DNA from: an uncultured Bacilli bacterium | GTDB taxonomy: Bacteria > Bacillota_I > Bacilli_A > RFN20 > CAG-449 | Assembly: GCA_947627505.1 (NCBI GenBank) | Contig: CANQWG010000003.1 | Coordinates: 5,504 to 69,503 of the forward strand | DNA: 64,000 bases | Direction of reading: 5' to 3' | Part shown: one piece after another, positions 118 to 11,631 of the stretch | Position numbering within the stretch: the stretch's first letter is position 1 | How the letters are laid out: each line of letters begins with the position of its first letter | Position numbers and translations under genes: made by a program | The notes under the pieces: generated by a model | Databases searched by the model: none | What the model saw: the letters and a program-made list of their open reading frames with translations, nothing else | What the model was told of the DNA's origin: nothing

Positions 118-1002
118 TTACCATTTTTTCTTTTCGTTTTTACCATGATTTTGCTTTCTTTCTTCAACCATATGAGCAAACCATTCTACCATGCTAGGAT
201 CATTATGAGAAAAGAAAGCACTATTAGTTTCATCAAGTGTAGCAATTAGTTTCATTTCATCATCAGTTAATGTAAAATCAAAAACATTGAAATTTTCTTG
301 CATCCTTTCAATATGGGTAGATTTACAAACAACCATGACACCTCTTTGCATTAACCATCTTAAAATCACTTGGGCATTACTTTTTTGATATTTATCACCA
401 ATTGATTTTAAAGCAGGATTGGTAAACATATCTTTTCTACCTTCGCCAAATGGTGCCCAGGCCTCAATAAAACATCCATATTTTTCATTCCACTTTTGAG
501 CTTCAACTTGTTGATTAAATGGATGCGTTTCAATTTGATTAACCATAGGAGGAATTTCACTAAATGAAGCGATGTCGACTAGTCTATCTGGATAGAAATT
601 AGATACACCTATGGCTTTAATTTTTCCTTCTTTGTACAAATCAATTAAAGCTCTATAAGCACCATAGACATCAAAGAATGGTTGGTGTAATAACATTAAA
701 TCAATGTAATCTGTTTTGAGTTTTCTTAAAGATTCTAAAACAGAAGCTTTAGTTTCTTCATAGCCATAATGTTCAACCCATACTTTAGAAGTAATAAACA
801 AATCTTTTCTAGGAATACCGCATTCAACAATAGCATCTCCTACAGCTTCTTCATTAAAATATGATTGAGCGGTATCAATTAAACGATAACCAACTTTAAT
901 AGCGTCTAGAACACATCTTTTAGTTTCTTCTGCAGGTATTTGATAAACACCAAAACCAAGCATTGGCATTTTGATTCCATTTCTTAAAACTTTATATTCC
1001 AT
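118..1002 (-). CDS. aldo/keto reductase family oxidoreductase
   Basis: 294-aa ORF; AKR family hallmarks (LGFGVYQ N-terminus, LIDTAQSY, IPRKDLFITSK, C-terminal NAD(P)-binding region). Confidence 0.85.
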   Translation of the reverse strand: MEYKVLRNGIKMPMLGFGVYQIPAEETKRCVLDAIKVGYRLIDTAQSYFNEEAVGDAIVECGIPRKDLFITSKVWVEHYGYEETKASVLESLRKLKTDYIDLMLLHQPFFDVYGAYRALIDLYKEGKIKAIGVSNFYPDRLVDIASFSEIPPMVNQIETHPFNQQVEAQKWNEKYGCFIEAWAPFGEGRKDMFTNPALKSIGDKYQKSNAQVILRWLMQRGVMVVCKSTHIERMQENFNVFDFTLTDDEMKLIATLDETNSAFFSHNDPSMVEWFAHMVEERKQNHGKNEKKKW

Positions 1003-1003
1003 C

Positions 1004-1468
1004 TTATTTTAGACCTCCGATAAATTTTAAATGCTCTTCAATACCTTTATTAAATAATCCTTTTTCAAACTTCATCTTAGCATCAATTTGTTTACAATCT
1101 TTGAATGAATTAATCATATATTGCGGATCATTTGTATAACTATTAGCAAATAAATAAACTTTGCCTTGAAATCCTTTGATTTGTTCTAAAAATGTTCCAA
1201 TAGGCATTGGAAAGGTATACCACCAAATAGGAAAGAAAAGTAAAATATTATCATACTCATTAACATCGACATTGATATCCTTAATAGATGGATGAATTTT
1301 CTTTTCAACCTCTTCTTTTGCTTCAACATAGGCACATTTGTCATAATCACTAGAATAAGGAATAGTTTTTTCTATTCTTACTACATCAAATTTAAATTTT
1401 TGATTAACTTTTTCAACTAATTTTTTGGTATTATTTGACCAACTAAAATAAACCATTAAATTTTTCAT
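1004..1468 (-). CDS. flavodoxin-like protein
   Basis: VYFSWSNNTKKLVEKV matches the flavodoxin VYxSxxGNTxxxA N-terminal FMN motif; start placed at MKNLM, which has an AAAGGA RBS 8 nt upstream. Confidence 0.55.
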   Translation of the reverse strand: MKNLMVYFSWSNNTKKLVEKVNQKFKFDVVRIEKTIPYSSDYDKCAYVEAKEEVEKKIHPSIKDINVDVNEYDNILLFFPIWWYTFPMPIGTFLEQIKGFQGKVYLFANSYTNDPQYMINSFKDCKQIDAKMKFEKGLFNKGIEEHLKFIGGLK

Positions 1469-1572
1469 TTTTATCATCCTTTCTGACACTTAAATTTTAT
1501 AAAAAAACATAAAAAAAATAAAATATCAAAAAGGTATTGTGGTATAATTAAAACGTATAGTGAGGTGGCATT

Positions 1573-2415
1573 ATGATTGAACTTTATTTACTAGAGTATT
1601 TAGTGAAAATTCATGAACTTGGAAATCTTACCAAAGCAAGCGAAGCTTTATTTGTTTCCCAACCCTCTTTAACTCGCTCTATGCAAAAATTAGAAAACGA
1701 CTTAGGAATTGAATTATTTAATCACGCCAAAAATAAAATTACCTTTAATGAAGCAGGTGAATTACTTGTTAGTTATGCACAAAATGTTTTAAAAGCACAT
1801 GATTTAATGATTGAAAAAATGAACGATTATAAAAATTCTTTATCAACGATATCGATAGGAATGGTGGCTCCCGGGCCTATTTTTAAATATGGTAACTTTT
1901 TATATACTAATTTTACTCAAAAAAATGTTGTTACTTCGATAAAAAATGAAGAAACCTTAATAGAGGAATTGCTAAACGAAAAACAAACCATTATCTTTAT
2001 TAATCATCCATTAGATAATAAAAAAATTGTTTGTAAAAAATGCTTAGAAGAAAAATTATATTTATCAGTTCCAAAAAACCATTTTGTTGCCGGGATGAAA
2101 GATGGTATTTATTTTAAAGATATCGATGGTCAATCCTTTTTAATGGCTAGTGAAATCGGTTCCTGGAATGAAATTGTGAAAAAACATTTACCTAATTCTA
2201 AATTTTTCTTAGAGAACAATGATAATTTAAAGGAACTTGTCAATTCTTCAATTATTCCCTCATTCGTTACTAATATTACAATGAATAATAGATTGAGTAA
2301 TGATCGAATCTATCTTCCTTTTTTAGATGAAGATGCAATTATGCCATTTTATATCGCCTATCTTAAAAAGAATGAAAATAAACTTGAAAACTTTTTAAAA
2401 TCAATCTTAATTTAA
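1573..2415 (+). CDS. LysR family transcriptional regulator
   Basis: N-terminal HTH LGNLTKASEALFVSQPSLTRSMQKLENDLGIELF typical of LysR; 280 aa with substrate-binding-domain length. Confidence 0.85.
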   Translation: MIELYLLEYLVKIHELGNLTKASEALFVSQPSLTRSMQKLENDLGIELFNHAKNKITFNEAGELLVSYAQNVLKAHDLMIEKMNDYKNSLSTISIGMVAPGPIFKYGNFLYTNFTQKNVVTSIKNEETLIEELLNEKQTIIFINHPLDNKKIVCKKCLEEKLYLSVPKNHFVAGMKDGIYFKDIDGQSFLMASEIGSWNEIVKKHLPNSKFFLENNDNLKELVNSSIIPSFVTNITMNNRLSNDRIYLPFLDEDAIMPFYIAYLKKNENKLENFLKSILI

Positions 2416-2597: not shown

Positions 2598-3437
2598 TTA
2601 ACTTAATAAATTTTTTATAACATTAGCAATATCATCTTGCACTTCTAAGGCTTTTTCTTTAACCTCATTAGGGACAAAAGCATACTGATTATTAATTCTT
2701 ATAAGATAAGCATTTTTAAGATTATATGTTAGTGCTTCAAATGGATACCTTATAATACTAGGTGTATTAAATCCTGCTCCTAATTCTAAAAATAAAATCT
2801 TCCTATCTTTATGATCATTTATAAATTTCTCAAAAGCCAAATTATGTTCATGCCAATTATCATCTTCAACAAAAAAACCATCTTTTCTTAAATTAACATC
2901 CATTTTACCACCACATATAGGACACTTAGGAATTAATCTAGTTGGTATTTTACATTCTTTATCTTCTTTTAACATTTCTTTTATCAGTTTTTCATTATCA
3001 TATAGTTTATTATGGCAAGCTCTTGCACATTGAATTTTTGTTAAAGCTCCTTGCACTTCAAATACTTTCTTTTCATCAAATCCAGCTTTTAAAAACTGAC
3101 GATCAACATTGGTTGTTAAAACAAAATAATCTTTATCTTTTATAAATTTAAATAAATCTAAATAAATATCTGTTACTTTCATTCCAACACATAAGTAATT
3201 GATGTGTTTTGCCCAATATGACCATCTTTCTTCTTCTGTATCAAAATCATAAAAACTTGAAGTATACATATCACTAAAGCCATATCTTTCAACAAGTTCA
3301 GGAAATAATTTTGCAAAATCTTTTGTTCCGTAATTAACTCCTGAGGCAGTAGATAGTCCTGCTCCGGCACCAATAACAATAGCATCTGTATTATTAATTT
3401 TCTCTTTAATTTTTAAATAAAGTTCTGTATTCACCAT
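2598..3437 (-). CDS. Sir2-family protein (divergent sirtuin, SirTM-like)
   Basis: IVIGAGAGLSTASG Rossmann motif, TTNVDRQF (cf. QNIDxLH), VFEVQGAL at the position of the catalytic HG, Zn ribbon Cx3C...CxxC; start at MVNTELY overlaps the stop of the macro gene. Confidence 0.75.
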   Translation of the reverse strand: MVNTELYLKIKEKINNTDAIVIGAGAGLSTASGVNYGTKDFAKLFPELVERYGFSDMYTSSFYDFDTEEERWSYWAKHINYLCVGMKVTDIYLDLFKFIKDKDYFVLTTNVDRQFLKAGFDEKKVFEVQGALTKIQCARACHNKLYDNEKLIKEMLKEDKECKIPTRLIPKCPICGGKMDVNLRKDGFFVEDDNWHEHNLAFEKFINDHKDRKILFLELGAGFNTPSIIRYPFEALTYNLKNAYLIRINNQYAFVPNEVKEKALEVQDDIANVIKNLLS

Positions 3438-4167
3438 AATCACTCTCACTAAAAACATTAAAAATAACTTTTAGATCCACATTATATTTACTTAATATTT
3501 CTTTCACCGAGTTATAAGCTATGAACTTAGCTTTTTTTATTGGATAAGCAAATAAACCTGTTGAAATTGAAGGAAAAGCAATCGATTGATATTCATTTTT
3601 AATTGCATATTCTAAAGATTTTTTATAACAACTTGCTAAATCTAATTCATTTTGTCTAGTTACTTCTTGATATACTTGAGGACCAACAGTTGTAACGACT
3701 TTTTGGCTTGGTAAATTATAAGCATTACACACAATGATATCCCCTGTAGGAATCGTTTTACCTTTTAAGATGTCATTACATTCTAATCTTAATCTCATTC
3801 CCGCATTCGTATGAATAATATTATCAATACATTGATGGTTTGGGTTAAAGCAACCAAGTCCATCTTGATTTCCAGCATTAACAATGACATCACATTTTAA
3901 AGTAGTAATATCACCCTTCCAAAGAATGATGTTTTGTTCGATTTCTTTTAAATCTTTTACATCTGTTATTATTTTATCTTTTAATTCTAATTTTAAATAT
4001 TCATCTTCTAAAAGTAAGATATTTTCATCGATTGGTTTTGGCATTCTTATATTAACAAGAGCTTTATATAATTTTTTTAAATCCTCATATGTAGAAGGTA
4101 TATTAACACCATAACCTTTCTCATCAATTAAATATTTGACAATTTTTAAAAGTAATTTTTGCTTCAT
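3406..4167 (-). CDS. macrodomain protein (ADP-ribose binding/hydrolase family) with ~100-aa N-terminal extension
   Basis: LWKGDITTLKCDVIVNAGNQDGLG matches the macro motif GDITxxxxDAIVNAAN; 253 aa. Confidence 0.75.
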   Translation of the reverse strand: MKQKLLLKIVKYLIDEKGYGVNIPSTYEDLKKLYKALVNIRMPKPIDENILLLEDEYLKLELKDKIITDVKDLKEIEQNIILWKGDITTLKCDVIVNAGNQDGLGCFNPNHQCIDNIIHTNAGMRLRLECNDILKGKTIPTGDIIVCNAYNLPSQKVVTTVGPQVYQEVTRQNELDLASCYKKSLEYAIKNEYQSIAFPSISTGLFAYPIKKAKFIAYNSVKEILSKYNVDLKVIFNVFSESDYGEYRTLFKN

Positions 4168-4189
4168 TTAAATCAATCCAATTGATCAC

Positions 4190-4588
4190 TTAATGTTCAC
4201 TGATTTCTTCAGGTGATGCATAAAAATTATATTTATAAGCTTTGATATTAACTAATTTATAAGTAACAAATCTTCCATCTCCTGCTTTATATAACTGAGA
4301 TGGACCTGTAGGATCATTAAGCATTGCTTCTTGAACTTCTATTCGATTATCTTCAACAACTTCCGCGGATACTCTAATCCAAGTTCCACCATCATACATT
4401 CCTGATATTTCAATTTTATTATTTTCTTTTAATTGCTTATAAGTATCTTTATGATTTCCAGTACAAATATAAGGATGTCCTTCAAACTCTGCAATACTTG
4501 AAAATGGTCTAACTCTAGGTTGATCTTTTTCCATGGTTGCAAGATAAAATACTTTTACTTTTTTTAATTCTTCAACTATCTTATTCAT
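4190..4588 (-). CDS. pyridoxamine 5'-phosphate oxidase-like FMN-binding split-barrel protein
   Basis: VFYLATMEKDQPRVRPFSSIAEFEGHPYICTGNHKDTYKQLKENNKIEI matches the PNPOx-like family pattern; 132 aa. Confidence 0.7.
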   Translation of the reverse strand: MNKIVEELKKVKVFYLATMEKDQPRVRPFSSIAEFEGHPYICTGNHKDTYKQLKENNKIEISGMYDGGTWIRVSAEVVEDNRIEVQEAMLNDPTGPSQLYKAGDGRFVTYKLVNIKAYKYNFYASPEEISEH

Positions 4589-4590
4589 TT

Positions 4591-5031
4591 TTATTTCTCC
4601 AATTTTAACTCTTTAAGAATGTCATTATATACATTCCCAATTTTTATTTCTTCCATTTGTTTTTTCATTGAATCTTGAATTTTTGCTAACTTATCATCCA
4701 TAGCCTTATGAATATTTTTTCCAATTGGACAATTGAGATTTGGATTACTATGAAAATGAAATAAACCATCTTCATCTAAACTATCAACAGCATTGAAAAC
4801 ATCTAATAATGATATATTATCAATGCTTTTCATTAGACCAATACCGGTTTTTCCTTGACTAATATCAAGGATTCCAGCTTCTCTTAATTTAGATATAACA
4901 GTTCTTACCGTGACAGGATTTGCACCCGTAGATGATGCAAGTAAAGAACTAGTAACAATGGTTTCTTTTTTAAAATATTCAATCGCACATATAATATGGA
5001 CACCAATTGTAAATTGATTTGTAATTTGCAT
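4591..5031 (-). CDS. Rrf2 family transcriptional regulator
   Basis: N-terminal wHTH SSLLASSTGANPVTVRTVISKLREAGIL typical of Rrf2/BadM; internal promoter TTGCCA-17-TATATA and RBS AGGTGAG upstream. Confidence 0.8.
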   Translation of the reverse strand: MQITNQFTIGVHIICAIEYFKKETIVTSSLLASSTGANPVTVRTVISKLREAGILDISQGKTGIGLMKSIDNISLLDVFNAVDSLDEDGLFHFHSNPNLNCPIGKNIHKAMDDKLAKIQDSMKKQMEEIKIGNVYNDILKELKLEK

Positions 5032-5096
5032 TTCATCTCACCTTATATAATATTTTACCATATTTTTGGCAAGATGTCATTTAGAATACTACAAGT

Positions 5097-5867
5097 CTAA
5101 AATTTACCATTGCTATTTGCCCATTTAGATTTATCTAAAATGGTTTCCATAACATCCCAGTGTTCGGCAATTTTTCCGTTTTCAACTCGCCAAAGATCAT
5201 AATAAGCAGTTGGTTTTCCACCAAAGGTTCCTTCAGATACGCCTAAGGCATAATCGCCACATGCTAAAACCATATGCACTTTATCATAAATCATTTGTAT
5301 GCCAGCTTTTGCTAATGCTTCTAAAGCAAGACCAAGACCACTTAAACCATCCGCAATATCTGTATTATGTTGTAAGTACATATCTCCATTAAAATAGGAT
5401 GTTGTTTTTTCTGGAGCCTTATTTTGCATTACATCATGTAAGAAATTTTTAACTATTTCTCGTGTTTTTTCGGTATTTTTATTGGGAGTAATCAAAGTAT
5501 TGCCATCAATTTGTGTTCTTCCACTTGGATTAGGTTTAGCAAGTAAAGCTAAATTATCCCAATGTTCAGCAATTAAGCCATCTTCAAATCTAAAAATATC
5601 AAATGCTACTTGTTCACCTGCTCCTGCAAAGTTATAAATTGATTGAAGAACAACTTTATCTTTATCTTCAAACTCTCTTATCACTTTTAATGTTGTTTTA
5701 ATGGGAGCTGATGCTAAATAAGTAACACTGCTAATAAAGGCATCTTTTCCTGTTGCGTAAGATAAATTGTGTTGAATGTAGTCTTCTTTTAACAATTTTT
5801 CGACTACTTCTACATCACCGCTTGTGAATGTTGAAATTAATGCTTTTGCTTTTTCAATATTTGTCAT
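5097..5867 (-). CDS. tandem SnoaL-like / NTF2-like domain protein
   Basis: Two ~125-aa repeats, each with the Y[IL]QHN motif and ending IAEHWD; start at MTNIEK with RBS GGAGGG; ORF-track start (5933) is probably upstream of the real start. Confidence 0.75.
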   Translation of the reverse strand: MTNIEKAKALISTFTSGDVEVVEKLLKEDYIQHNLSYATGKDAFISSVTYLASAPIKTTLKVIREFEDKDKVVLQSIYNFAGAGEQVAFDIFRFEDGLIAEHWDNLALLAKPNPSGRTQIDGNTLITPNKNTEKTREIVKNFLHDVMQNKAPEKTTSYFNGDMYLQHNTDIADGLSGLGLALEALAKAGIQMIYDKVHMVLACGDYALGVSEGTFGGKPTAYYDLWRVENGKIAEHWDVMETILDKSKWANSNGKF

Positions 5868-5915
5868 TTTTAAACCCTCCATTTGACAATTCATATTTGC
5901 ATTTTTATCAAATAC

Positions 5916-5952
5916 ACTTGTAGCATATAGCATTACAAGTTATCTTGTCAAA
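5916..5952 (-). promoter_or_regulatory. promoter of the SnoaL-Rrf2-PNPOx-macro-Sir2 operon with overlapping ACTTGTA-N11-TACAAGT inverted repeat
   Basis: Minus strand TTGACA (5947-5952) then ~16 nt to TATATG; perfect 7-bp inverted repeat arms at 5916-5922 and 5934-5940 between the -35 and -10; lies ~50 nt upstream of the RBS. Confidence 0.5.
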
Positions 5953-6250
5953 TAGTTTATTACAAGTTTTAAAAATTTTTACAATTACATAAAATGCTTT
6001 CGCCAAACATCGGTATCTCTATAATTTTAGACATAGTTCGGTTAAAGAATCTTAGATACCTTTCAAATATATTCCCTAATGAAAACATTGGTCTCCTTTA
6101 AAAATATAGTATACTGTTAAACATTTATGAAAGAGATTATTAATAAGCCAAAAAGCTCTAATCCATTTTTTTGGCTATTTAATATGCATTACACAGCATA
6201 AAAATTGCATCATTATAAATTTTTCCCTTACAATTTTCTAACATAGAAGT

Positions 6251-6276
6251 AAAAAAGCCCTAAAATAGGGCTTTTA
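6251..6276 (-). terminator. rho-independent terminator (minus strand)
   Basis: AGCCCTAAAATAGGGCT hairpin followed on the minus strand by a U6 run. Confidence 0.6.
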
Positions 6277-6310
6277 ATACCAAATGGCAAAAGAGAACTA
6301 TTTTGATACA

Positions 6311-6360
6311 ATGCACGCAGTTGCACGCAAATGAACGCAAATGAACGCAGATGCAAGCAG
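6311..6360. repeat. five tandem 10-bp repeats, consensus ATGMACGCAR
   Basis: atgcacgcag ttgcacgcaa atgaacgcaa atgaacgcag atgcaagcag; GC-rich within AT-rich non-coding DNA; exact 10-bp period. Confidence 0.9.
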
Positions 6361-6370
6361 GCTAAAGGCA

Positions 6371-6408
6371 AACAAAAAACCACCAAAGTCATATAAACTC
6401 TAGTGGTT
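6371..6408 (-). terminator. rho-independent terminator for the ABC/hypothetical operon
   Basis: Minus strand AACCACTAgag...cTTGGTGGTT stem (one G.U) followed by UUUUUUG. Confidence 0.55.
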
Positions 6409-6580
6409 ATTATTTAATTTACCATTTTTCTTTTTGCTGATTTAGCAAGTTCTTTTAGGATCCGTAGGTTTTAAATGATGAAATTCGTAATTCATATCTT
6501 TTACCTTTTTTTGAAAAAGACATATTTCTTTATCTTTACAAATTGTTCTCCTAATAAAGCTTTGTCTAGTTCAGTCAAAA

Positions 6581-7201
6581 TTATTCCTCAACAATCTCTA
6601 CACTATATTTTTCATCAAGACCATGTTCTTTTAAAAAGGCATTGAATTCTTCTGAAAGCTGTTTTGCTGAATATTCTCTATTTTCATTGGAATTAACTTT
6701 ATGAGCATTGATGTTTGCTTTTGTCTTTTGATTGAGTTCATCAATTTTTCTTGCAGTATCCGCATTTGCATTTTTAGCACCATTTTTTATGTTTTCAATT
6801 ACAAGACGGCATTTTGCTTTAAAGCCTTTCGTGTGAAGAAATTCTTTAAATTCTTGATTTTCTTTTGAGTTTCTTACTGCTTCGATATTAGCTTTATCTT
6901 GCTCATGTTGACGATGAGCATTTTCTTTCATTTGACTAAAGGCTACTTTAAATTTAGCCTTAATTCCTTTTGTATTACAAAATTCTTTAAATTGCTTTGA
7001 AATTTCTTCTTCAGAAACGGCATAATCAGTTTTATAGTTTTCCATATTATTTTTCCTCCTATTTTCAATATTTTTTTGATTATTTTCTGAATGGATTATT
7101 AATATTTTAATTTTTTCTTTAAAAGTTTTAGCTTCCATGAATTGATGAAATTCATCATCACTTATTACATTGTTTGTATAAGTATCATTATTATTTTTCA
7201 T
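6581..7201 (-). CDS. hypothetical protein with three internal ~35-aa repeats (EFKEF..TKG[IF]KAK core)
   Basis: 206-aa charged, Lys/Glu/Asn-rich ORF, last gene of the ABC operon; repeats visible by eye. Confidence 0.5.
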   Translation of the reverse strand: MKNNNDTYTNNVISDDEFHQFMEAKTFKEKIKILIIHSENNQKNIENRRKNNMENYKTDYAVSEEEISKQFKEFCNTKGIKAKFKVAFSQMKENAHRQHEQDKANIEAVRNSKENQEFKEFLHTKGFKAKCRLVIENIKNGAKNANADTARKIDELNQKTKANINAHKVNSNENREYSAKQLSEEFNAFLKEHGLDEKYSVEIVEE

Positions 7202-7225
7202 TTTAAATGATCATCACCTCAATTT

Positions 7226-8008
7226 TTAAACCAAACTTGTTTTGTTAAGGATGAATTTACTTACAAAAGCAAGTCCAATACTAAATAAGATTCCGCCTAC
7301 AAAACACATAATGACATTTAGAATTCCTGCATCCAGTGGTGTCATCATAGGAATCATCATAAATAAAAGCATTCCACCACCTAAAACACAAATAATAGAT
7401 AGCCATAATTTGGTTTTTGCAACACACGCTAACGTTAAAGCGATAGAAATAAAGATAAGTAAAATAAACATTTTTGAAAGTAAACAGCAAATGATTGTAC
7501 CTACATTAAATCCATCCATACTAAATGGAAGTCCAGCAATTGCTCCACCAACCATTCCACCAATAAAGAATAAAAGGAGCATGACTATACTTGCGATAAA
7601 GCAAGTAATGGTTTTCGATATAACATATTCCATTCTCTTTGCTCTAATAGTAAATAAATTTTTTACATAGCCACTTCTGAAATCTTCACTGACAAAGATA
7701 CAAGCAAAGATTGCAACAATGAAATAAATGAGATTAATATTACACATACTGGTTAAATCCATGGACATACCAGCATTTGATGTAGCACCTAATATTTGCC
7801 ATACATTCGTAAATGTTTCCATTACTGTTTCTTCTCCTGTTGAGGGATCTACAACGGAGGTATTCCCCATAAAACTAGTCATTACAAGAATTAAAACGGG
7901 AATCATGAAACATATGCCGAACATTATATAGACTAAAGGAGTCTTAAACATTCTTCTACTATCTACTTTTAACATGCTCTTAAGATTATTTAAATTCGCT
8001 TTATTCAT
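7226..8008 (-). CDS. ABC-2 family transporter permease (paralog B)
   Basis: 260 aa with ~6 predicted TM segments; start overlaps the stop of the upstream ATPase. Confidence 0.75.
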   Translation of the reverse strand: MNKANLNNLKSMLKVDSRRMFKTPLVYIMFGICFMIPVLILVMTSFMGNTSVVDPSTGEETVMETFTNVWQILGATSNAGMSMDLTSMCNINLIYFIVAIFACIFVSEDFRSGYVKNLFTIRAKRMEYVISKTITCFIASIVMLLLFFIGGMVGGAIAGLPFSMDGFNVGTIICCLLSKMFILLIFISIALTLACVAKTKLWLSIICVLGGGMLLFMMIPMMTPLDAGILNVIMCFVGGILFSIGLAFVSKFILNKTSLV

Positions 8009-8910
8009 TATAATGTACCTCCTTTATCCATGAGATTAATGTAATATTCTTCTAAGTTAATTTTTTTAGTTTGGACATAAGTAGGTAAAATATTTTCACT
8101 ATATAGATAACTTACAACGTCTTTTGTCAAACAAGAATCATAAACACGAAGTTCATCATTTTCTTCAATAACCTTTTTATATCTTTTTTCTAATGCCCGT
8201 TTTGCTTCTATATTATCTTTTGCTTTTATCGCAACATAGGTCGGACATTCTTTTTCTAATTCTTCCGCTGTCATTTCTTTTATCATTTTTCCATTTCGAA
8301 TGATTCCATAATGCGTCGCTATTTTTTCAAGTTCACCTAAAATATGTGATGAAATTAAAACAGTACAACTTAAATTTTTTGTAATATCTATTAATACTTC
8401 TCGCATGATTCTCATTCCATCAGCATCAAGACCATTGATAGGTTCATCTAAAATTAATAGTTTAGGATTTCCAAGTAATGCAAAAGCAATACCAATTCTT
8501 TGTTTCATACCTAATGAACAATTTTTAAATTTATTCGAGGCTGATCCTTCCATTCTTACAATTTTTAAGACTCTTCTAATTTCTTCATTTTCATTTTTAA
8601 TACCTAAATTAGCAGCCTGGATTTTCATATTATCCCAAACACTGATATTAGGAAAACATCCTGGACTTTCAATTAAAACACCTATTTGAGACCTAATTTC
8701 TTGATCATGATAATCTTTATCAAATAATTTAATTGTGCCACTATTTGGTCTAATGAGTCCACATATGAGCTTTTCAGTTGTGGATTTACCAGAACCATTT
8801 TCGCCAATAAAACCATAAATTGCACCCATAGGTACTGTCATATTTAAATTTGATAAAGCTTGTTTTTCTCCATAATTTTTGGTTAAATTTCTAATTTCAA
8901 TTGCATTCAT
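8008..8910 (-). CDS. ABC transporter ATP-binding protein (paralog B)
   Basis: Walker A GENGSGKST, signature SLGMKQR, Walker B LLILDEP, H-loop SSHIL. Confidence 0.9.
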   Translation of the reverse strand: MNAIEIRNLTKNYGEKQALSNLNMTVPMGAIYGFIGENGSGKSTTEKLICGLIRPNSGTIKLFDKDYHDQEIRSQIGVLIESPGCFPNISVWDNMKIQAANLGIKNENEEIRRVLKIVRMEGSASNKFKNCSLGMKQRIGIAFALLGNPKLLILDEPINGLDADGMRIMREVLIDITKNLSCTVLISSHILGELEKIATHYGIIRNGKMIKEMTAEELEKECPTYVAIKAKDNIEAKRALEKRYKKVIEENDELRVYDSCLTKDVVSYLYSENILPTYVQTKKINLEEYYINLMDKGGTL

Positions 8911-8923
8911 AATTATTTACTCC

Positions 8924-9745
8924 TTAATAACAATCTCTTTTTGATAACACTAAGGTTCCCACTATGTTATAAATAACAGCCCAAACTAGACTTATGCCAA
9001 GACAAGTAATTAAACTGATGATATTTGATGATAAACAAGCATTCACGGATGAACCATATAAAAAGATATTTAAAATAGATGAATTCCCAACAATTGATGC
9101 TGCGCCAATGACAGGAATACCTGTTCCAAAAACAAAACATAAGGCGATAGAAATACCAAATTTTCTTCTAAAAATAATGTTAATAAAAGTATATAAACTT
9201 GCCCACCCTAAACTCATAATCATCTTGCCTAAAATGGCTAAAATAAGTGAACCAACATTTATGGTAAATGGAAGACCTGTAAAAGCACCTGAAAGAGTGC
9301 CCCCTATAAGATAAGTTATACACATACACATCATTGAAAAAGCACTAATAATGGTCTTAGACATCATATAATCTTGTTTTGTTGAATGAGTTGTAAATAA
9401 TTGTTTTACATAACCACTATGGTAATCATGTCCAATAAAGATTGAAATCATAATTCCCCCAAAAATAAAGACCATATTCATATTGGCATACTCACCAATA
9501 TTACTTATAACATACAAGGGTTTATCGGCAGCTATGATTTGCCAAGCATTAGTAAACATTCCTGCCGTTTCATTCGTATCCCCCATAGATCCCATAGAAA
9601 CTAAAGCTGGAATAATCGCAGCAATAAACAAAAAGATATAAAACAAAGGCGTATGAAATAAACGATAAAAATCGACACTTAACATTCCTTTAATCCTTTT
9701 AAAAAAAGATGGTTGTTCAAATTCTAAAGTGATTTCTTTTTCCAT
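8924..9745 (-). CDS. ABC-2 family transporter permease (paralog A)
   Basis: 273 aa polytopic membrane protein with the same architecture as 7226-8008. Confidence 0.75.
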   Translation of the reverse strand: MEKEITLEFEQPSFFKRIKGMLSVDFYRLFHTPLFYIFLFIAAIIPALVSMGSMGDTNETAGMFTNAWQIIAADKPLYVISNIGEYANMNMVFIFGGIMISIFIGHDYHSGYVKQLFTTHSTKQDYMMSKTIISAFSMMCMCITYLIGGTLSGAFTGLPFTINVGSLILAILGKMIMSLGWASLYTFINIIFRRKFGISIALCFVFGTGIPVIGAASIVGNSSILNIFLYGSSVNACLSSNIISLITCLGISLVWAVIYNIVGTLVLSKRDCY

Positions 9746-10644
9746 TATTTATTTACCTCCTTACTCATTAATTCAATATAATATTCTTCTAAACCAATTT
9801 TGTTTTGAATAATCTTACTAACTTCAAAGTGATTTGAAAGTAAAATATTCATCACTTTTTCTGTATCATCTTCATCAAAGATTTTTAAATTATTATCTAA
9901 CCTAACATCATTAAAATGTTTTTTTAAAATATTATAAGCTTCTTTATTATTATTCGTTTCAACTTCAATAAACGTCCGATTTCTTGCTTCCATTTCTTTT
10001 GCGGAAATTTCTTGAATCATTTTACCTTGACGAATAATTCCATAATGAGTTGCTATTTTTTCAAGTTCACCTAAAATATGTGATGAGATTAAAACGGTGC
10101 AATGATAATTTTTAGTAATATCCGCCAATATTTCTCGCATCATTTTCATTCCCTCAGTATCTAAACCATTGATAGGTTCATCTAAAATAAGTAAGGCTGG
10201 ATTTCCAAGTAATGCCATGGCAATACCAACTCTTTGTTTCATTCCTAAAGAACATTTTTTAAATGGAAGTTTAATGTGTTCTTCCATTTTCACAATCTTT
10301 AATACCCTATGAATTTCTTCATCAATATTTTCAATTCCTAAATTTAGTGCTTGCATTTTCAAATTAGCATAAATACTAGAGTTTGGAAAACATCCGGCAT
10401 TTTCAATTAAGGCACCTACTCTTGCTCTTACACCTGGGTCAGTATAATCTCTACCAAATAATTTAATTTCACCCTTATTTGGTACTAAGTGACCACAAAT
10501 ACATTTTTCAGTTGTTGATTTACCTGAGCCATTTTCACCTATAAATCCATAAATTGCTCCAACAGGTACAGTCATATGAAAATCATCAAGTGCATACAAA
10601 CCGCGAAAACTTTTTGATAAATTTTTTATTTCTATTGCGTTCAT
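9745..10644 (-). CDS. ABC transporter ATP-binding protein (paralog A)
   Basis: ~60 percent identical to 8008-8910 by eye (GAIYGFIGENGSGKSTTEK identical); start at MNAIEI with RBS AAAGGAG. Confidence 0.9.
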   Translation of the reverse strand: MNAIEIKNLSKSFRGLYALDDFHMTVPVGAIYGFIGENGSGKSTTEKCICGHLVPNKGEIKLFGRDYTDPGVRARVGALIENAGCFPNSSIYANLKMQALNLGIENIDEEIHRVLKIVKMEEHIKLPFKKCSLGMKQRVGIAMALLGNPALLILDEPINGLDTEGMKMMREILADITKNYHCTVLISSHILGELEKIATHYGIIRQGKMIQEISAKEMEARNRTFIEVETNNNKEAYNILKKHFNDVRLDNNLKIFDEDDTEKVMNILLSNHFEVSKIIQNKIGLEEYYIELMSKEVNK

Positions 10645-10660
10645 TGTTTCTCCTTTCAAA

Positions 10661-10748
10661 ACCACATTTGTTGTTTTTACACTAGTATTATAGTATAATT
10701 TGTTTGTAATTTACCCAACAATAAATCAAACATGTGTTGTTTTCACAA
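10661..10748. promoter_or_regulatory. divergent promoter region with two ~20-bp direct repeats (candidate TetR operators)
   Basis: ACATTTGTTGTTTTTACAC (10664-10682) and ACATGTGTTGTTTTCACAA (10729-10747); a TATAAT on each strand between them. Confidence 0.4.
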
Positions 10749-10785
10749 AAATATTATTATTCAAAACATTATACAAGGAGTAATT

Positions 10786-11373
10786 ATGGGAAAATCAGAA
10801 GTCAAATATCAAAATACATCTATTAAAATGGATAAGGCTATGTTAAAGCTATTGGAAGAAAAAGATTTTTTAGATATTAGTGTATCAGAAATTTGTATAG
10901 AAGCTGGTGTAAATAGATCTACATTTTATGATCATTATTTAAATACCAGTGATTTGTTAAAAGAAACACAAAAAGAAATTATGAAAGATTTTACTCTTTA
11001 TTTTAATAATTATTCTATTGAGTTCCCTGACTTTTCAAAAAATAATAGTGAAGAGTTTCTTTTCATATCGCCTAAATATCTAATTCCCTATTTAGAATAT
11101 GTAAAAAAACATAAAAAACTTTTTAAAACTTATTTATCTAATCTTTCTACTTTCAATGTCGATGAAGCTTATAGTGATTTATTTGAATATGTTTTGAAAC
11201 CTGTCTTTATTAGAATGGGTGTTGAGAATGATTTAATTATGAACTATATGTCAAAGTTTTACTTATCTGGTGTAACTGCAATTGTAAATGAGTGGATTAA
11301 TCGTGATTGTCAAGATGATATGTTATTTGTTGTTGAAATAATCATTGCCTGCATACCACAACAAACAAGTTAA
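10786..11373 (+). CDS. TetR/AcrR family transcriptional regulator
   Basis: HTH ISVSEICIEAGVNRSTFYDHY; start at MGKSEV with RBS AAGGAG; divergent from the ABC operon. Confidence 0.8.
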   Translation: MGKSEVKYQNTSIKMDKAMLKLLEEKDFLDISVSEICIEAGVNRSTFYDHYLNTSDLLKETQKEIMKDFTLYFNNYSIEFPDFSKNNSEEFLFISPKYLIPYLEYVKKHKKLFKTYLSNLSTFNVDEAYSDLFEYVLKPVFIRMGVENDLIMNYMSKFYLSGVTAIVNEWINRDCQDDMLFVVEIIIACIPQQTS

Positions 11374-11411
11374 TATCAAAAATTTCTTCCAAGTTAAATA
11401 CATCAAAAAAA

Positions 11412-11458
11412 GGTCCTAGAAAAATGCAACTTCGCACTTACTAAGACCTATTTTTCTT
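11412..11458 (+). terminator. hairpin plus T-run after tetR; copy 2 of the conserved hairpin element
   Basis: GGTCCTAG...CTAAGACC stem, loop AAAAATGCAACTTCGCACTTA, then TATTTTTCTTT. Confidence 0.55.
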
Positions 11459-11490
11459 TAAAACTACATAGACGTTGAGAGTCGAACTCT

Positions 11491-11543
11491 ATAAAAAACA
11501 GACTGACACCATTGCAAACTTGTTTGCATTAGTATCAATCTGG
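11491..11543 (-). terminator. compound rho-independent terminator downstream of tRNA-His
   Basis: Minus strand CAGATTGA...TCAGTCTG outer stem enclosing TGCAAACaagTTTGCA, followed by UUUUUUAU. Confidence 0.6.
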
Positions 11544-11554
11544 TTCTTTCAATA

Positions 11555-11631
11555 TGGGGCGAACGATGGGAATCGAACCCACGAGTGTCTGGTTCACAGC
11601 CAGATGTGTTAACCACTTCACCACATTCGCC
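11555..11631 (-). tRNA. tRNA-His (anticodon GUG) with encoded G-1 and 3' CCA
   Basis: Minus-strand sequence GGCGAATG...GTGGGTTCGATTCCCATCGTTCGCCCCA; anticodon loop CUGUGAA; G-1:C73 pair characteristic of tRNA-His. Confidence 0.9.

What the first reader, a model, noticed from the sequence alone, without database searches (positions are those of the whole stretch)
2598..5952. Rrf2-headed operon coupling a divergent sirtuin (QG instead of catalytic HG) to a macrodomain protein, with PNPOx-like and tandem SnoaL-like partners: a SirTM/macro-like module in a new context
Five minus-strand genes are packed with 2-65 nt gaps or overlaps. They are a tandem SnoaL/NTF2-like protein (5097-5867), an Rrf2 regulator (4591-5031), a PNPOx-like FMN split-barrel protein (4190-4588), a macrodomain protein with a ~100-aa N-terminal extension (3406-4167) and a Sir2-fold protein (2598-3437). 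The sirtuin start overlaps the macro stop, which suggests translational coupling. By eye the sirtuin keeps the GAGxGxS Rossmann motif, the NVDRQF region and a Cx3C...CxxC zinc ribbon, but it has VFEVQGAL where sirtuins carry the catalytic HG, and GVNYGTKDF where GIPDFR is expected. Macrodomain-linked sirtuins (class M, SirTM) are established as protein ADP-ribosyltransferases whose mark the macrodomain removes. Their operons contain GcvH-L and LplA2, and both are absent here. This operon instead encodes a flavin-binding protein, a tandem cyclase-like protein and its own Rrf2 regulator. That combination suggests a redox-linked reversible ADP-ribosylation circuit acting on a different substrate. 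I do not recognise this five-gene arrangement as a described system.
Basis: partly seen in the sequence, partly recalled or inferred. Interest (0 to 1): 0.8.

Follow-up and report, generated by a model that had tools for sequence, protein, structure and literature searches.

The report
Canonical SirTM–macrodomain pair, new conserved partners
The "odd" sirtuin is an ordinary member of the known ADP-ribose writer/eraser pair (SirTM plus zinc macrodomain), but it sits in a conserved, stress-regulator-controlled five-gene operon whose small flavoprotein-like partner almost always travels with the pair, which gives a testable candidate for the pair's unknown target.

Summary
All five minus-strand genes exist as described. 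The sirtuin is not divergent. Gln-Gly in place of His-Gly is the defining motif of class-M sirtuins. This protein matches the S. pyogenes SirTM structure 5A3A (E 4e-59) and keeps its catalytic trio as N110/Q129/R184. The macrodomain is the cognate zinc-dependent type: Cx4HxC loop, Dx3H, N-terminal extension.

SirTM/Zn-Macro pairs without GcvH-L/LplA2 are already published for Clostridia, but their targets are stated to be unknown. The context appears undescribed in the literature I could search:
- The order tandem-SnoaL, Rrf2, PNPOx-fold, Macro, SirTM recurs in about nine divergent contigs.
- In a 91% relative the same block sits between different neighbours.
- Its promoter carries two CTTGT-N13-ACAAG palindromes over the -35 and -10 boxes. 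These are the only two in 64 kb, and they are conserved in all eight operons compared.
- The palindromes resemble the S. aureus HypR operator.
- The PNPOx-fold (Nim-like) orthogroup is almost never found away from the pair: Macro lies directly downstream in 21 of 21 close orthologs and SirTM in 20 of 21.

Verdict: a new extended-operon variant of a known system, most likely a thiol-stress-induced reversible ADP-ribosylation circuit. The PNPOx-fold protein is the best candidate partner or target, and that link is untested.

The parts
2598..3437 (-). SirTM: class-M sirtuin, a predicted NAD+-dependent protein mono-ADP-ribosyltransferase (279 aa). Catalytic trio N110/Q129/R184; zinc ribbon C137, C141, C172, C175.
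   Evidence: PDB 5A3A SpySirTM E 4e-59 with QG aligned. Q129, G130, N110 and all four Cys are invariant, and R184 is conserved in at least 90%, in 13 homologs. Motif positions. Trio defined.
3406..4167 (-). Zinc-dependent macrodomain (Zn-Macro), a protein ADP-ribosyl hydrolase (253 aa). Zn loop C106-x4-H111-x-C113, D115-x3-H119, N-terminal helical extension.
   Evidence: NCBIfam NF003163 protein-ADP-ribose hydrolase 261 bits (cutoff 272). PDB 8RSI 1.6e-59 and 5KIV 1.2e-55, aligned from residues 8 and 23. Motifs; family definition.
4190..4588 (-). PNPOx-fold (FMN-binding split-barrel type, NimC/NimA-like) protein, 132 aa, with invariant Cys42. Dedicated partner of the Macro/SirTM pair and candidate target or effector.
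   Evidence: Pfam PNPOx_N. PDB 2IG6 E 6.5e-26. AF2 model pLDDT 92; Foldseek 2IG6 TM 0.88-0.90. Macro directly downstream in 21/21 close orthologs and in 5/6 look-ups.
4591..5031 (-). Rrf2-family regulator of the YwnA/SaiR/HypR type (no Fe-S ligand triad). Cys101 lies in the invariant NPNxxCP(V/I)G motif; Cys15 is also present. Predicted autoregulated repressor of the operon.
   Evidence: Pfam Rrf2 2e-22. NCBIfam HypR only 54 bits against a cutoff of 180. PDB 1YLF 6e-29 and YwnA 1XD7 7e-21. Cys conservation. Biology of this subgroup.
5097..5867 (-). Tandem SnoaL/NTF2-like protein (256 aa) of unknown function; first gene of the operon.
   Evidence: Pfam SnoaL_2 in two stretches. Homologs at 66-82% identity occupy the same position in other operons. 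Some homologs carry lipoprotein signal peptides.
5922..5951 (-). Sigma-70-type promoter of the operon: -35 TTGACA 5951-5946, 18-nt spacer, -10 TATGCT 5927-5922.
   Evidence: Promoter scan, 10 of 12 matches. The position is conserved in all eight five-gene operons compared.
5944..5966 (.). Operator O1: CTTGT-N13-ACAAG palindrome overlapping the -35 box.
   Evidence: One of only two matches in 64 kb (expected 0.03). Arms conserved and spacer variable in 8/8 operons.
5917..5939 (.). Operator O2: CTTGT-N13-ACAAG palindrome (ACTTGTA-N11-TACAAGT) overlapping the -10 box. It has the same TTGTA-N11-TACAA geometry as the S. aureus HypR operator.
   Evidence: HypR operator TAATTGTAACTA-N3-CAGTTACAATTA overlapping -10 is from PMC6067689.
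2500..5980 (-). The whole block (promoter, operators, five genes and about 100 nt of 3' tail) that is conserved as one unit and sits at a different chromosomal position in a 91% relative.
   Evidence: blastn L086 430-3900 = window 5980-2500 at 92% identity, while the flanks match elsewhere in the window (10590-11560).

Best explanation
The 279-aa protein is a canonical class-M sirtuin (SirTM) that uses NAD+ to mono-ADP-ribosylate a protein. The overlapping upstream gene encodes its cognate zinc-dependent macrodomain, which removes the mark. Together they form a reversible ADP-ribosylation switch. Here the pair is the 3' end of a conserved five-gene operon: tandem SnoaL-like, YwnA/HypR-type Rrf2, Nim-like PNPOx-fold protein, Zn-Macro, SirTM. 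One promoter drives the operon, and its -35 and -10 boxes are each covered by a CTTGT-N13-ACAAG palindrome. The proposed mechanism is as follows. The Rrf2 dimer sits on both palindromes and represses the operon, including its own gene. A thiol-oxidising or electrophilic signal, or a ligand, releases it. The redox-type proteins and the writer/eraser pair are then made together. The switch acts on a target that is not lipoyl-GcvH-L, and the co-inherited PNPOx-fold protein is the most likely direct partner (target or regulated effector). SHOWN: the family identity and intact catalytic motifs of SirTM and Zn-Macro; operon anatomy; conservation of gene order; conservation and uniqueness of the palindromes; near-obligate PNPOx-Macro-SirTM linkage. 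INFERRED: that Rrf2 binds the palindromes; that the signal is thiol or electrophile stress; that the five genes are co-transcribed; the identity of the target.
For: SirTM identity: 5A3A E 4e-59, QG aligned to SpySirTM QG, N110/Q129/R184 = Asn118/Gln137/Arg192 (definitions). Zn-Macro identity: Cx4HxC, Dx3H, N-terminal extension; 8RSI and 5KIV near 1e-59. Macro is next to SirTM in 62 of 74 loci from different species. Five-gene order: the window species and a 91% relative, L101 and L105, L107/L109/L113/L116/L119. The block sits between different neighbours in the 91% relative. The operon is mosaic: against L101, SnoaL/Rrf2/PNPOx are 81/67/71% identical but Macro/SirTM only 41/48%, whereas the window's Macro/SirTM are 76-78% identical to HxlR-Macro-SirTM loci. 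The same combination has therefore been assembled or kept with different pair lineages. PNPOx orthologs at 65% identity or more: Macro directly downstream in 21/21, SirTM in 20/21; 5/6 and 4/6 in independent look-ups. Operators: two matches in 64 kb, both at this promoter, expected 0.03; arms invariant and spacers variable in 8/8 operons. Related TGTA-N11-TACA sites lie at the Rrf2 promoter and the SirTM-operon promoter in about 12 of the 16 other Rrf2-linked species loci, at 1.67 against 0.27 per 10 kb. Their geometry and -10 overlap match the validated HypR operator. Stress context: the alternative regulator at these loci is HxlR/DUF24 (about 29 of 74 loci), all with the N-terminal Cys. Other recurrent partners are nitroreductase, a YwnB-like NAD(P)H-binding protein, radical-SAM/SPASM and FMN reductase. 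Known SirTM operons respond to oxidative stress.
Against: There are no expression, binding or enzymatic data for this locus. A second promoter-like site (5080-5052) lies between the SnoaL and Rrf2 genes, so the SnoaL gene could also be transcribed apart. This Rrf2 lacks HypR's sensing Cys33 and scores far below the HypR equivalog cutoff. Its only family-wide Cys is C101, so the sensing chemistry is unknown. About a quarter of SirTM/Macro loci have no recognisable partner at all, so the pair does not strictly need a neighbouring target. The closest relatives of this SirTM (71-79%) lack the PNPOx gene. One PNPOx-Macro pair lacks SirTM nearby. ORF calling for the neighbourhood census was crude (ATG-only, BLAST clustering).
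Confidence: 0.7

Rival explanations
1. Co-regulation only. SirTM/Zn-Macro is a self-contained signalling pair whose targets are encoded elsewhere, possibly many proteins. The PNPOx-fold, SnoaL-like and other redox proteins would be independent detoxification enzymes that merely share a stress-responsive promoter with it.
For: Many loci have only Macro-SirTM, with or without a regulator (L083). Partner sets are variable: nitroreductase, NAD_binding_10, rSAM, DUF1848. The nearest SirTM relatives have HxlR-Macro-SirTM without PNPOx.
Against: The window-type PNPOx orthogroup is essentially never found away from Macro: 21/21 at 65% identity or more, always immediately upstream. That is tighter than a shared regulon predicts. 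The same PNPOx lineage is combined with divergent Macro/SirTM lineages.
Confidence: 0.22
2. Small-molecule or NAD-metabolite role. The pair, or at least Macro with the PNPOx-fold protein, acts on a small molecule. Examples are ADP-ribosylation of a xenobiotic as in Arr, or processing of an ADP-ribose derivative, as part of a detoxification operon.
For: The context is rich in xenobiotic-type enzymes: Nim-like, nitroreductase, FMN reductase, MATE. A PNPOx-Macro pair exists without an adjacent SirTM. Some SnoaL-like partners are lipoproteins, which suggests ligand handling.
Against: Every characterised SirTM and Zn-Macro acts on protein-linked ADP-ribose. All protein-directed catalytic motifs are retained. 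No precedent exists within this family.
Confidence: 0.06
3. Toxin-antitoxin or anti-phage module, like DarTG. SirTM would be an NAD-consuming or ADP-ribosylating toxin, neutralised by the upstream, translationally coupled macrodomain.
For: The eraser gene lies first and overlaps the writer gene by 32 nt. The block sits at a different position in a close relative. Sir2 domains occur in defence systems.
Against: No PADLOC model hits any of the five proteins. Gene order is reversed (SirTM then Macro) in a dozen species. S. aureus lacking the macrodomain gene and expressing sirTM grew like controls. The regulators and partners are redox or stress types, not defence types.
Confidence: 0.02
4. Ordinary CobB-type NAD-dependent protein deacylase that happens to lie beside a MacroD-type O-acetyl-ADP-ribose deacetylase.
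For: Weak NCBIfam hits to CobB-type models (27-43 bits). O-acetyl-ADP-ribose produced by a deacylase would be a macrodomain substrate.
Against: Those scores are far below the cutoffs (221-395). The catalytic His is replaced by Gln, invariantly. The closest structure is SirTM at 4e-59, against 4e-3 for Thermotoga Sir2. SirTMs lack deacylase activity.
Confidence: 0.01

Closest known systems
Extended SirTM operon of Staphylococcus aureus / Streptococcus pyogenes (GcvH-L, Zn-Macro, SirTM, LplA2, with OYE and LLM oxidoreductases; Rack et al. 2015, PMC4518038; Ariza et al. 2024, PMC11490716; Cell Rep 2025, PMC12440151)
   Same: The same writer and eraser families, with the same catalytic residues. 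The same Macro-then-SirTM order with overlapping genes. Association with flavin-type oxidoreductases and with oxidative-stress biology.
   Different: No GcvH-L, LplA2, OYE or LLM. Instead there is a PNPOx-fold protein, a tandem SnoaL-like protein and an in-operon Rrf2 regulator. SauMacro Arg175/Arg176 contact GcvH-L in the published AlphaFold 3 model. By my reading of the 5KIV alignment, assuming a 6-residue tag, these are Tyr-Gln here: PQIRRLP against PQVYQEV. The target is therefore expected to differ.
'Lone' SirTM/Zn-Macro pairs (e.g. Enterococcus faecalis, Treponema pedis, and PDB 8RSI, the closest solved macrodomain to this one, which I take to be the paper's MorMacro; Ariza et al. 2024)
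   Same: This is the published category the locus falls into. Such pairs are reported in Clostridiaceae and Lachnospiraceae. Their Zn-Macros do not demodify GcvH-L, and their targets are stated to be unknown.
   Different: In the text passages I read (term searches only; Table S3 and the figures were not examined), the papers treat the pair as standing alone. Here, and in many related loci, it is embedded in conserved larger operons with dedicated regulators (Rrf2 or HxlR) and a near-obligate PNPOx-fold partner.
HypR-MerA (S. aureus), SaiR (B. anthracis) and YwnA-YwnB (B. subtilis): cluster-less Rrf2 repressors of disulfide-stress genes (Loi et al. 2018, PMC6067689)
   Same: An Rrf2 without the Fe-S Cys triad but with the single conserved Cys (about position 99-101). 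Autoregulated operon. A TTGTA-N11-TACAA-type palindrome overlapping the -10 box. YwnB-like NAD(P)H-binding genes are recurrent neighbours in sister loci.
   Different: Only 54 bits on the HypR equivalog model (cutoff 180). HypR's sensing Cys33 is absent. There are two tandem operators. The regulated genes are different.
Nim / PNPOx-like split-barrel proteins (NimC/NimA family, PDB 2IG6; general stress protein 26)
   Same: Fold and family: E 6.5e-26, TM 0.9. Small, single-domain protein; fold neighbours include FMN-, FAD-, F420- and haem-binding proteins.
   Different: No function is known for this orthogroup. Its defining feature found here is near-obligate linkage to Zn-Macro/SirTM, which is not part of the Nim literature I could search.
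DarT/DarG toxin-antitoxin (ADP-ribosyltransferase plus macrodomain antitoxin)
   Same: An adjacent writer/eraser gene pair for ADP-ribosylation.
   Different: Different writer fold and a DNA target. No PADLOC hit here. The regulatory context is stress or redox, not defence.

Membership tests
Class-M sirtuin (SirTM) | Catalytic HG motif replaced by QG | tested here: met
   V128-Q129-G130 aligns to the SpySirTM IQG (Gln137). Q129 and G130 are invariant in 13 homologs. Definition.
Class-M sirtuin (SirTM) | Conserved Asn and Arg of the N118/Q137/R192 catalytic trio | tested here: met
   N110 and R184, at a constant offset of 8 from SpySirTM numbering (trio).
Class-M sirtuin (SirTM) | Close sequence relationship to a solved SirTM rather than to other sirtuin classes | tested here: met
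   5A3A E 4.2e-59 over residues 11-274, against Thermotoga Sir2 at 4e-3.
Class-M sirtuin (SirTM) | Genetic linkage to a Zn-type macrodomain in the same operon | tested here: met
   32-nt overlap with the upstream Macro gene. Macro is adjacent in 62/74 species loci.
Class-M sirtuin (SirTM) | Protein ADP-ribosyltransferase activity without deacylase activity | not testable with these tools
   Needs enzyme assays.
Zinc-dependent macrodomain (Zn-Macro) | Cx(4)HxC zinc loop replacing the Gly-rich catalytic loop | tested here: met
   C106-FNPN-H111-Q-C113. Motif definition.
Zinc-dependent macrodomain (Zn-Macro) | Dx3H motif | tested here: met
   D115-NII-H119.
Zinc-dependent macrodomain (Zn-Macro) | N-terminal three-helix-bundle extension | tested here: inconclusive
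   The N-terminal 75-95 residues align with those of 8RSI (from residue 8) and 5KIV (from residue 23). The structure was not modelled here.
Zinc-dependent macrodomain (Zn-Macro) | NCBIfam NF003163 (protein-ADP-ribose hydrolase) above its curated cutoff | tested here: not met
   261.1 bits against a cutoff of 272. This is just below. The model is an equivalog, presumably built on extended-operon proteins (my inference, not checked), so this argues against strict equivalence and not against family membership.
Extended SirTM operon (GcvH-L/LplA2 type) | Adjacent GcvH-L carrier protein | tested here: not met
   No GcvH-like ORF in the operon. No tblastn hit with E. coli GcvH in the window or in the loci held at that point, L001-L093. 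A very divergent GcvH-L could escape BLAST.
Extended SirTM operon (GcvH-L/LplA2 type) | Adjacent lipoate-protein ligase LplA2 | tested here: not met
   No hit with E. coli LplA.
Extended SirTM operon (GcvH-L/LplA2 type) | Associated OYE and luciferase-like monooxygenase genes | tested here: not met
   The eight neighbouring genes scanned carry Flavodoxin_4, Aldo/keto reductase, LysR, Rrf2, PNPOx_N and SnoaL domains, or no Pfam domain at all. None carries PF00724 or PF00296.
HypR/SaiR/YwnA-type (cluster-less) Rrf2 repressor | Rrf2 fold lacking the three-Cys Fe-S ligands but keeping the single conserved Cys (about 97-101) | tested here: met
   Only C15 and C101 are present. C101 lies in the invariant NPNxxCP(V/I)G motif. 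Best structures are 1YLF and YwnA 1XD7. Subgroup described.
HypR/SaiR/YwnA-type (cluster-less) Rrf2 repressor | HypR equivalog: NCBIfam NF041852 above cutoff, and the sensing Cys33 | tested here: not met
   54.2 bits against a cutoff of 180. There is no Cys near position 33. It is therefore not HypR itself.
HypR/SaiR/YwnA-type (cluster-less) Rrf2 repressor | Dyad-symmetric operator overlapping the promoter of its own operon | tested here: met
   Two CTTGT-N13-ACAAG palindromes over -35 and -10. The geometry matches the HypR operator. Binding itself is not testable here.
PNPOx-like / Nim split-barrel family | Split beta-barrel fold with family-level sequence match | tested here: met
   PF01243 30 bits (cutoff 28.1). 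2IG6 E 6.5e-26. AF2 pLDDT 92, TM 0.88-0.90 to 2IG6.
PNPOx-like / Nim split-barrel family | Bound cofactor (FMN, FAD, F420 or haem) and nitroimidazole-reductase activity | not testable with these tools
   Needs biochemistry.
Known anti-phage defence / toxin-antitoxin systems | Match to a PADLOC-DB model | tested here: not met
   No hit for SirTM, Macro, PNPOx or SnoaL. The only hit for Rrf2 is meaningless at 0.009.

The most novel reading that the evidence does not exclude
In this operon class the small PNPOx-fold (Nim-like) protein takes the place that lipoyl-GcvH-L holds in staphylococci and streptococci. It would be the dedicated, redox-active substrate that SirTM switches by ADP-ribosylation and Zn-Macro switches back, possibly on its invariant Cys42 or on an acidic residue. 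The module would be deployed under thiol or electrophile stress by an Rrf2 or HxlR sensor. That would give the first target of a 'lone' SirTM/Zn-Macro pair. It would also show that the writer/eraser pair is a portable switch that has been re-coupled to different redox carrier proteins.
Probability: 0.3. Interest if true: 0.7.

Novelty: new variant of a known kind. Interest (0 to 1): 0.5.

Why it matters
SirTM/Zn-Macro is the only sirtuin-based reversible protein ADP-ribosylation system known. Its one established target is lipoyl-GcvH-L, and that target exists only in the extended operon of Lactobacillales and Staphylococcaceae. The 2024 and 2025 papers state explicitly that the targets and physiological roles of the pairs found elsewhere are unknown. 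These other pairs are numerous: more than 8000 database relatives of this protein alone. The present analysis turns that open question into concrete experiments. It names a protein that is almost never separated from the pair (the PNPOx-fold orthogroup). It names two regulator families that control the pair (YwnA/HypR-type Rrf2 and HxlR/DUF24). It defines an operator sequence. It also lists cultivable carriers, for example Anaeroplasma bactoclasticum (HxlR form with the window-type PNPOx), and Coprococcus comes, Ruminococcus flavefaciens and Butyrivibrio (sister variants whose PNPOx partners, where present, belong to other subfamilies). It does not reveal a new enzyme class or a new mechanism.

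Tried and rejected
1. 'Divergent sirtuin': rejected, because QG is the class-M hallmark.
2. CobB-type deacylase: rejected.
3. Defence or toxin-antitoxin reading: no PADLOC hits, and supporting literature argues against toxicity.
4. A GcvH-L or LplA2 hidden nearby: tblastn with E. coli GcvH and LplA found nothing in the window or in loci L001-L093. Sensitivity to very divergent GcvH-L is limited, and the rest of the genome is not available.
5. Rrf2 as a true HypR equivalog: rejected (54 bits against 180; no Cys33).
6. LysR, flavodoxin and aldo-keto reductase (118-2415) as part of the system: rejected, because the conserved block ends at 2500 and the 91% relative has a different neighbour there.
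7. The tandem SnoaL-like protein as the ADP-ribosylation target: unlikely, because some operon-linked homologs are lipoproteins.
8. Literature search for SirTM together with HxlR, Rrf2, nitroreductase, pyridoxamine or Nim: none of the 15 top-ranked papers listed contains 'SirTM'. The library lacks most subscription papers, and I did not open the supplementary tables of Ariza 2024.
9. The first operator pattern, TGTA-N11-TACA, was too loose for O1. CTTGT-N13-ACAAG fits both sites.
My ORF calling was ATG-only, so family counts are lower bounds.

Full report
OBSERVATION.
- Sir2-family protein: 2598-3437, 279 aa.
- Macrodomain protein: 3406-4167, 253 aa.
- PNPOx_N protein: 4190-4588, 132 aa.
- Rrf2 regulator: 4591-5031, 146 aa.
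- Tandem SnoaL_2 protein: 5097-5867, 256 aa.
Pfam supports every domain call. The sirtuin start overlaps the macrodomain stop by 32 nt, and the other junctions are 22, 2 and 65 nt. The SnoaL-like gene heads the operon, not Rrf2. The macrodomain extension is about 75-95 residues.

WHAT THE SIRTUIN AND MACRODOMAIN ARE.
The sirtuin is not divergent. It matches the solved S. pyogenes SirTM (5A3A) at E 4e-59 over residues 11-274, whereas ordinary Sir2 scores 4e-3. SpySirTM itself reads IFHIQGEY where this protein reads VFEVQGAL.
Rack et al. 2015 define class-M sirtuins by this replacement of HG by QG and by linkage to a macrodomain. Gln137, Asn118 and Arg192 form the catalytic trio. Here they are Q129, N110 and R184. 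Q129, N110 and the four zinc-ribbon cysteines are invariant, and R184 is conserved in at least 90%, in an alignment of 13 homologs.
The macrodomain is the cognate zinc-dependent type. It has the Cx4HxC loop (C106/H111/C113) and Dx3H (D115/H119). Its N-terminal extension aligns with 8RSI and 5KIV at about 1e-59 to 1e-55. It scores 261 bits on NCBIfam 'protein-ADP-ribose hydrolase', just under the equivalog cutoff of 272.
The family is very large: more than 8000 database relatives at E<1e-10.

WHAT WAS ALREADY KNOWN.
The published papers state three relevant points.
- SirTM/Macro pairs occur alone, in an extended GcvH-L/LplA2 operon (Lactobacillales and Staphylococcaceae only), or fused in fungi.
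- Pairs occur in Clostridiaceae and Lachnospiraceae.
- The targets and roles of pairs outside the extended operon 'remain elusive', and their Zn-Macros do not demodify GcvH-L.
A SirTM/Macro pair without GcvH-L/LplA2 is therefore not new in itself. E. coli GcvH and LplA queries found nothing in the window or in the flanks of the loci held at that point, L001-L093.

THE CONTEXT IS CONSERVED.
I fetched 80 loci from different species that carry a SirTM homolog at 38-58% identity and clustered their neighbours. The counts below include the window. Where a range is given, the lower figure counts genes in the same-strand cluster or its immediate flanks, and the higher figure counts genes anywhere within ±8 kb.
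- Macro is adjacent in 62 of 74 scorable loci.
- An HxlR/DUF24 regulator is present in 24-30 loci, mostly divergently transcribed, and all 30 copies keep the N-terminal Cys.
- PNPOx-fold proteins are present in 21-29 loci, either about 131 aa or about 205 aa fused to a 2x[4Fe-4S] ferredoxin.
- YwnA-type Rrf2 regulators are present in 10-16 loci.
- Less frequent partners are YwnB-like NAD(P)H-binding proteins, nitroreductases, radical-SAM/SPASM proteins, DUF1848, FMN reductases and the tandem SnoaL-like protein.
On a SirTM tree the Rrf2-linked loci fall in at least six separate clades, interleaved with HxlR-linked ones. The associations have therefore been gained or kept repeatedly.

THE EXACT FIVE-GENE ORDER RECURS.
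- It is found in the window species and in a 91% relative.
- It is found in L101 and L105, reached through PNPOx orthologs.
- It is found in L107 (cut by the contig end), L109, L113, L116 and L119 from a metagenome scan.
The closest SirTM relatives (76-79%) instead have HxlR-Macro-SirTM, and a 71% relative has the bare pair.
The operon is mosaic. Against L101, SnoaL/Rrf2/PNPOx are 81/67/71% identical, but Macro/SirTM are only 41/48%.
In the 91% relative the whole block (window 5980-2500) is 92% identical but sits between different neighbours. The five genes and their promoter therefore behave as one unit.

THE PNPOx-FOLD PARTNER.
It is a NimC/NimA-family split-barrel protein. It matches 2IG6 at E 6.5e-26. 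The AF2 model has pLDDT 92 and aligns to 2IG6 with TM 0.88-0.90. The next fold neighbours are PNPOx-related proteins that bind FMN, FAD, F420 or haem, and general stress protein 26.
I then asked the reverse question: where do its orthologs sit?
Five have Macro directly downstream, and the sixth has a 69-aa ORF in that place. Four have SirTM.
- In the metagenome scan, all 21 loci with 65% identity or more and enough downstream DNA have Macro next. Twenty of those also have SirTM.
- Below about 65% identity the link is lost.
This orthogroup, which has an invariant Cys42, is thus a near-obligate third component. That linkage is tighter than a shared regulon would predict.

REGULATION.
The Rrf2 belongs to the cluster-less YwnA/SaiR/HypR subgroup. 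It has only C15 and C101, and C101 lies in the invariant NPNxxCP(V/I)G motif. Its best structures are 1YLF and YwnA. It is not a HypR equivalog: it scores 54 bits against a cutoff of 180 and lacks Cys33.
Upstream of the SnoaL gene lies a promoter: TTGACA at 5951-5946 and TATGCT at 5927-5922. Its -35 and -10 boxes are each covered by a CTTGT-N13-ACAAG palindrome, O1 at 5944-5966 and O2 at 5917-5939.
- These are the only two matches in 64 kb (expected 0.03).
- In all eight five-gene operons compared, both palindromes are kept at the same distance from each other and from the start codon. The arms are invariant and the spacers vary.
- Related TGTA-N11-TACA pairs sit at the Rrf2 promoter and at the promoter of the SirTM-containing operon in about 12 of the 16 other Rrf2-linked species loci, at 1.67 against 0.27 sites per 10 kb.
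- The geometry (TTGTA-N11-TACAA, overlapping the -10 box) matches the experimentally validated S. aureus HypR operator. This Rrf2 subgroup responds to diamide or hypochlorite stress.
That Rrf2 binds these sites, and that thiol stress is the signal, are inferences.

MECHANISM PROPOSED.
Rrf2 represses the operon through O1 and O2. A thiol-oxidising or electrophilic cue, or a ligand, releases it. The SnoaL-like protein, Rrf2, the PNPOx-fold protein, Zn-Macro and SirTM are then made together. SirTM writes and Zn-Macro erases mono-ADP-ribose on a target other than GcvH-L, most plausibly the PNPOx-fold protein.

RIVALS.
- Co-regulation only, with targets elsewhere. This is supported by bare pairs and variable partners, and opposed by the 21/21 linkage.
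- A small-molecule role. This is suggested by the xenobiotic-type context and by one PNPOx-Macro pair without SirTM, but it has no precedent in the family.
- Toxin-antitoxin or defence. There are no PADLOC hits, the gene order is reversed in a dozen species, and S. aureus lacking the macrodomain gene and expressing sirTM grew like controls.
- CobB-type deacylase. This is refuted.

NOVELTY AND SCORE.
The enzymes are ordinary members of known families. The category 'pair without GcvH-L' is published. What appears undescribed in the literature I could search is the following:
- the conserved extended-operon variant;
- its regulators and operator;
- the near-obligate PNPOx-fold partner.
I did not open the supplementary tables of the 2024 paper. 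This is a new variant of a known kind. A specialist would not be astonished, because flavoproteins and oxidative stress already surround SirTM. It does, however, make an explicitly stated open question directly testable. Interest is 0.5.

Noticed in passing
window 6311-6360 and 2497-2525; L086 3834-3942: A 10-bp tandem repeat in five copies (reads CTGCGTTCAT/CTGCGTGCAT on the minus strand), preceded by a terminator-like hairpin (6408-6378), lies just upstream of the operon block. A truncated copy containing the exact 12-mer CATTTGCGTTCA lies 80 nt downstream of the SirTM stop. With one mismatch or fewer, the 12-mer occurs only at these two places in 64 kb. In the 91% relative the full element lies downstream of the block instead. 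It may mark recombination boundaries of the block.
   Followed up: partly
L086 276-407 and 3951-4085; window 11401-11560: In the 91% relative the five-gene block is flanked by direct repeats of about 135 bp (80-89% identical) and lies beside a tRNA-Leu gene. The matching element in the window follows tRNA-His (11555-11630) and precedes the TetR gene. The block has therefore changed position relative to the TetR/ABC-transporter genes. L086 is a 3x-coverage metagenome contig, so a chimera is not excluded.
   Followed up: partly
window 7226-10665 (minus strand), with TetR at 10732-11373: There is a tandem duplication of an ABC ATPase plus ABC-2 permease pair. The copies at 8008-8910/7226-8008 and 9745-10665/8924-9745 share 74-78% nucleotide identity over 300-nt stretches. 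A TetR-family regulator is transcribed divergently from them.
   Followed up: no
window 6581-7201 (minus strand): A 206-aa ORF with no Pfam hit is built of three or four internal repeats of an (E/Q)F(K/N)xF(L/C)xxxG motif, usually followed by xKAK. It lies between the ABC genes and the operon block.
   Followed up: no
L099 5001-6159 (same contig as L100 and L115); L104 4001-4602: Window-type PNPOx genes occur with Zn-Macro but without an adjacent SirTM (L099). In L104 the PNPOx gene is followed only by a 69-aa ORF where Macro should be, which looks like decay of the module.
   Followed up: partly
L102 988-3893; L121-L125 (about 4685-7903): A sub-branch has DUF1848 (about 309 aa, Cys-rich) inserted between Macro and SirTM: (Rrf2 or HxlR)-PNPOx-Macro-DUF1848-SirTM. 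DUF1848 is also next to the pair in six of the species-level loci.
   Followed up: no
L007, L011, L013, L019, L028, L029, L034-L036, L038, L040, L044, L049, L055, L078 (gene just upstream of Macro or SirTM): In these and several further loci of the same BLAST cluster, a second partner type is found: a PNPOx-fold domain fused to a 2x[4Fe-4S] ferredoxin domain (about 205 aa), often with radical-SAM/SPASM and nitroreductase genes. A third type is a 131-aa PNPOx family ending FSGNPPYEF, which looks nearly identical across several genera by eye.
   Followed up: partly
L055 3569-4456; L036 11625-12542: Homologs of the tandem SnoaL-like protein (66-68% identical to the window protein) carry lipoprotein signal peptides in some genomes and are cytoplasmic in others, including the window.
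   Followed up: no
window 118-2415; L090 12167-13532: A LysR regulator is transcribed divergently from a Flavodoxin_4 plus aldo-keto-reductase pair directly downstream of the block. A second Flavodoxin_4/AKR paralog pair lies a little further on in the same genome, beyond the window edge. This is a separate unit and not part of the conserved block.
   Followed up: partly
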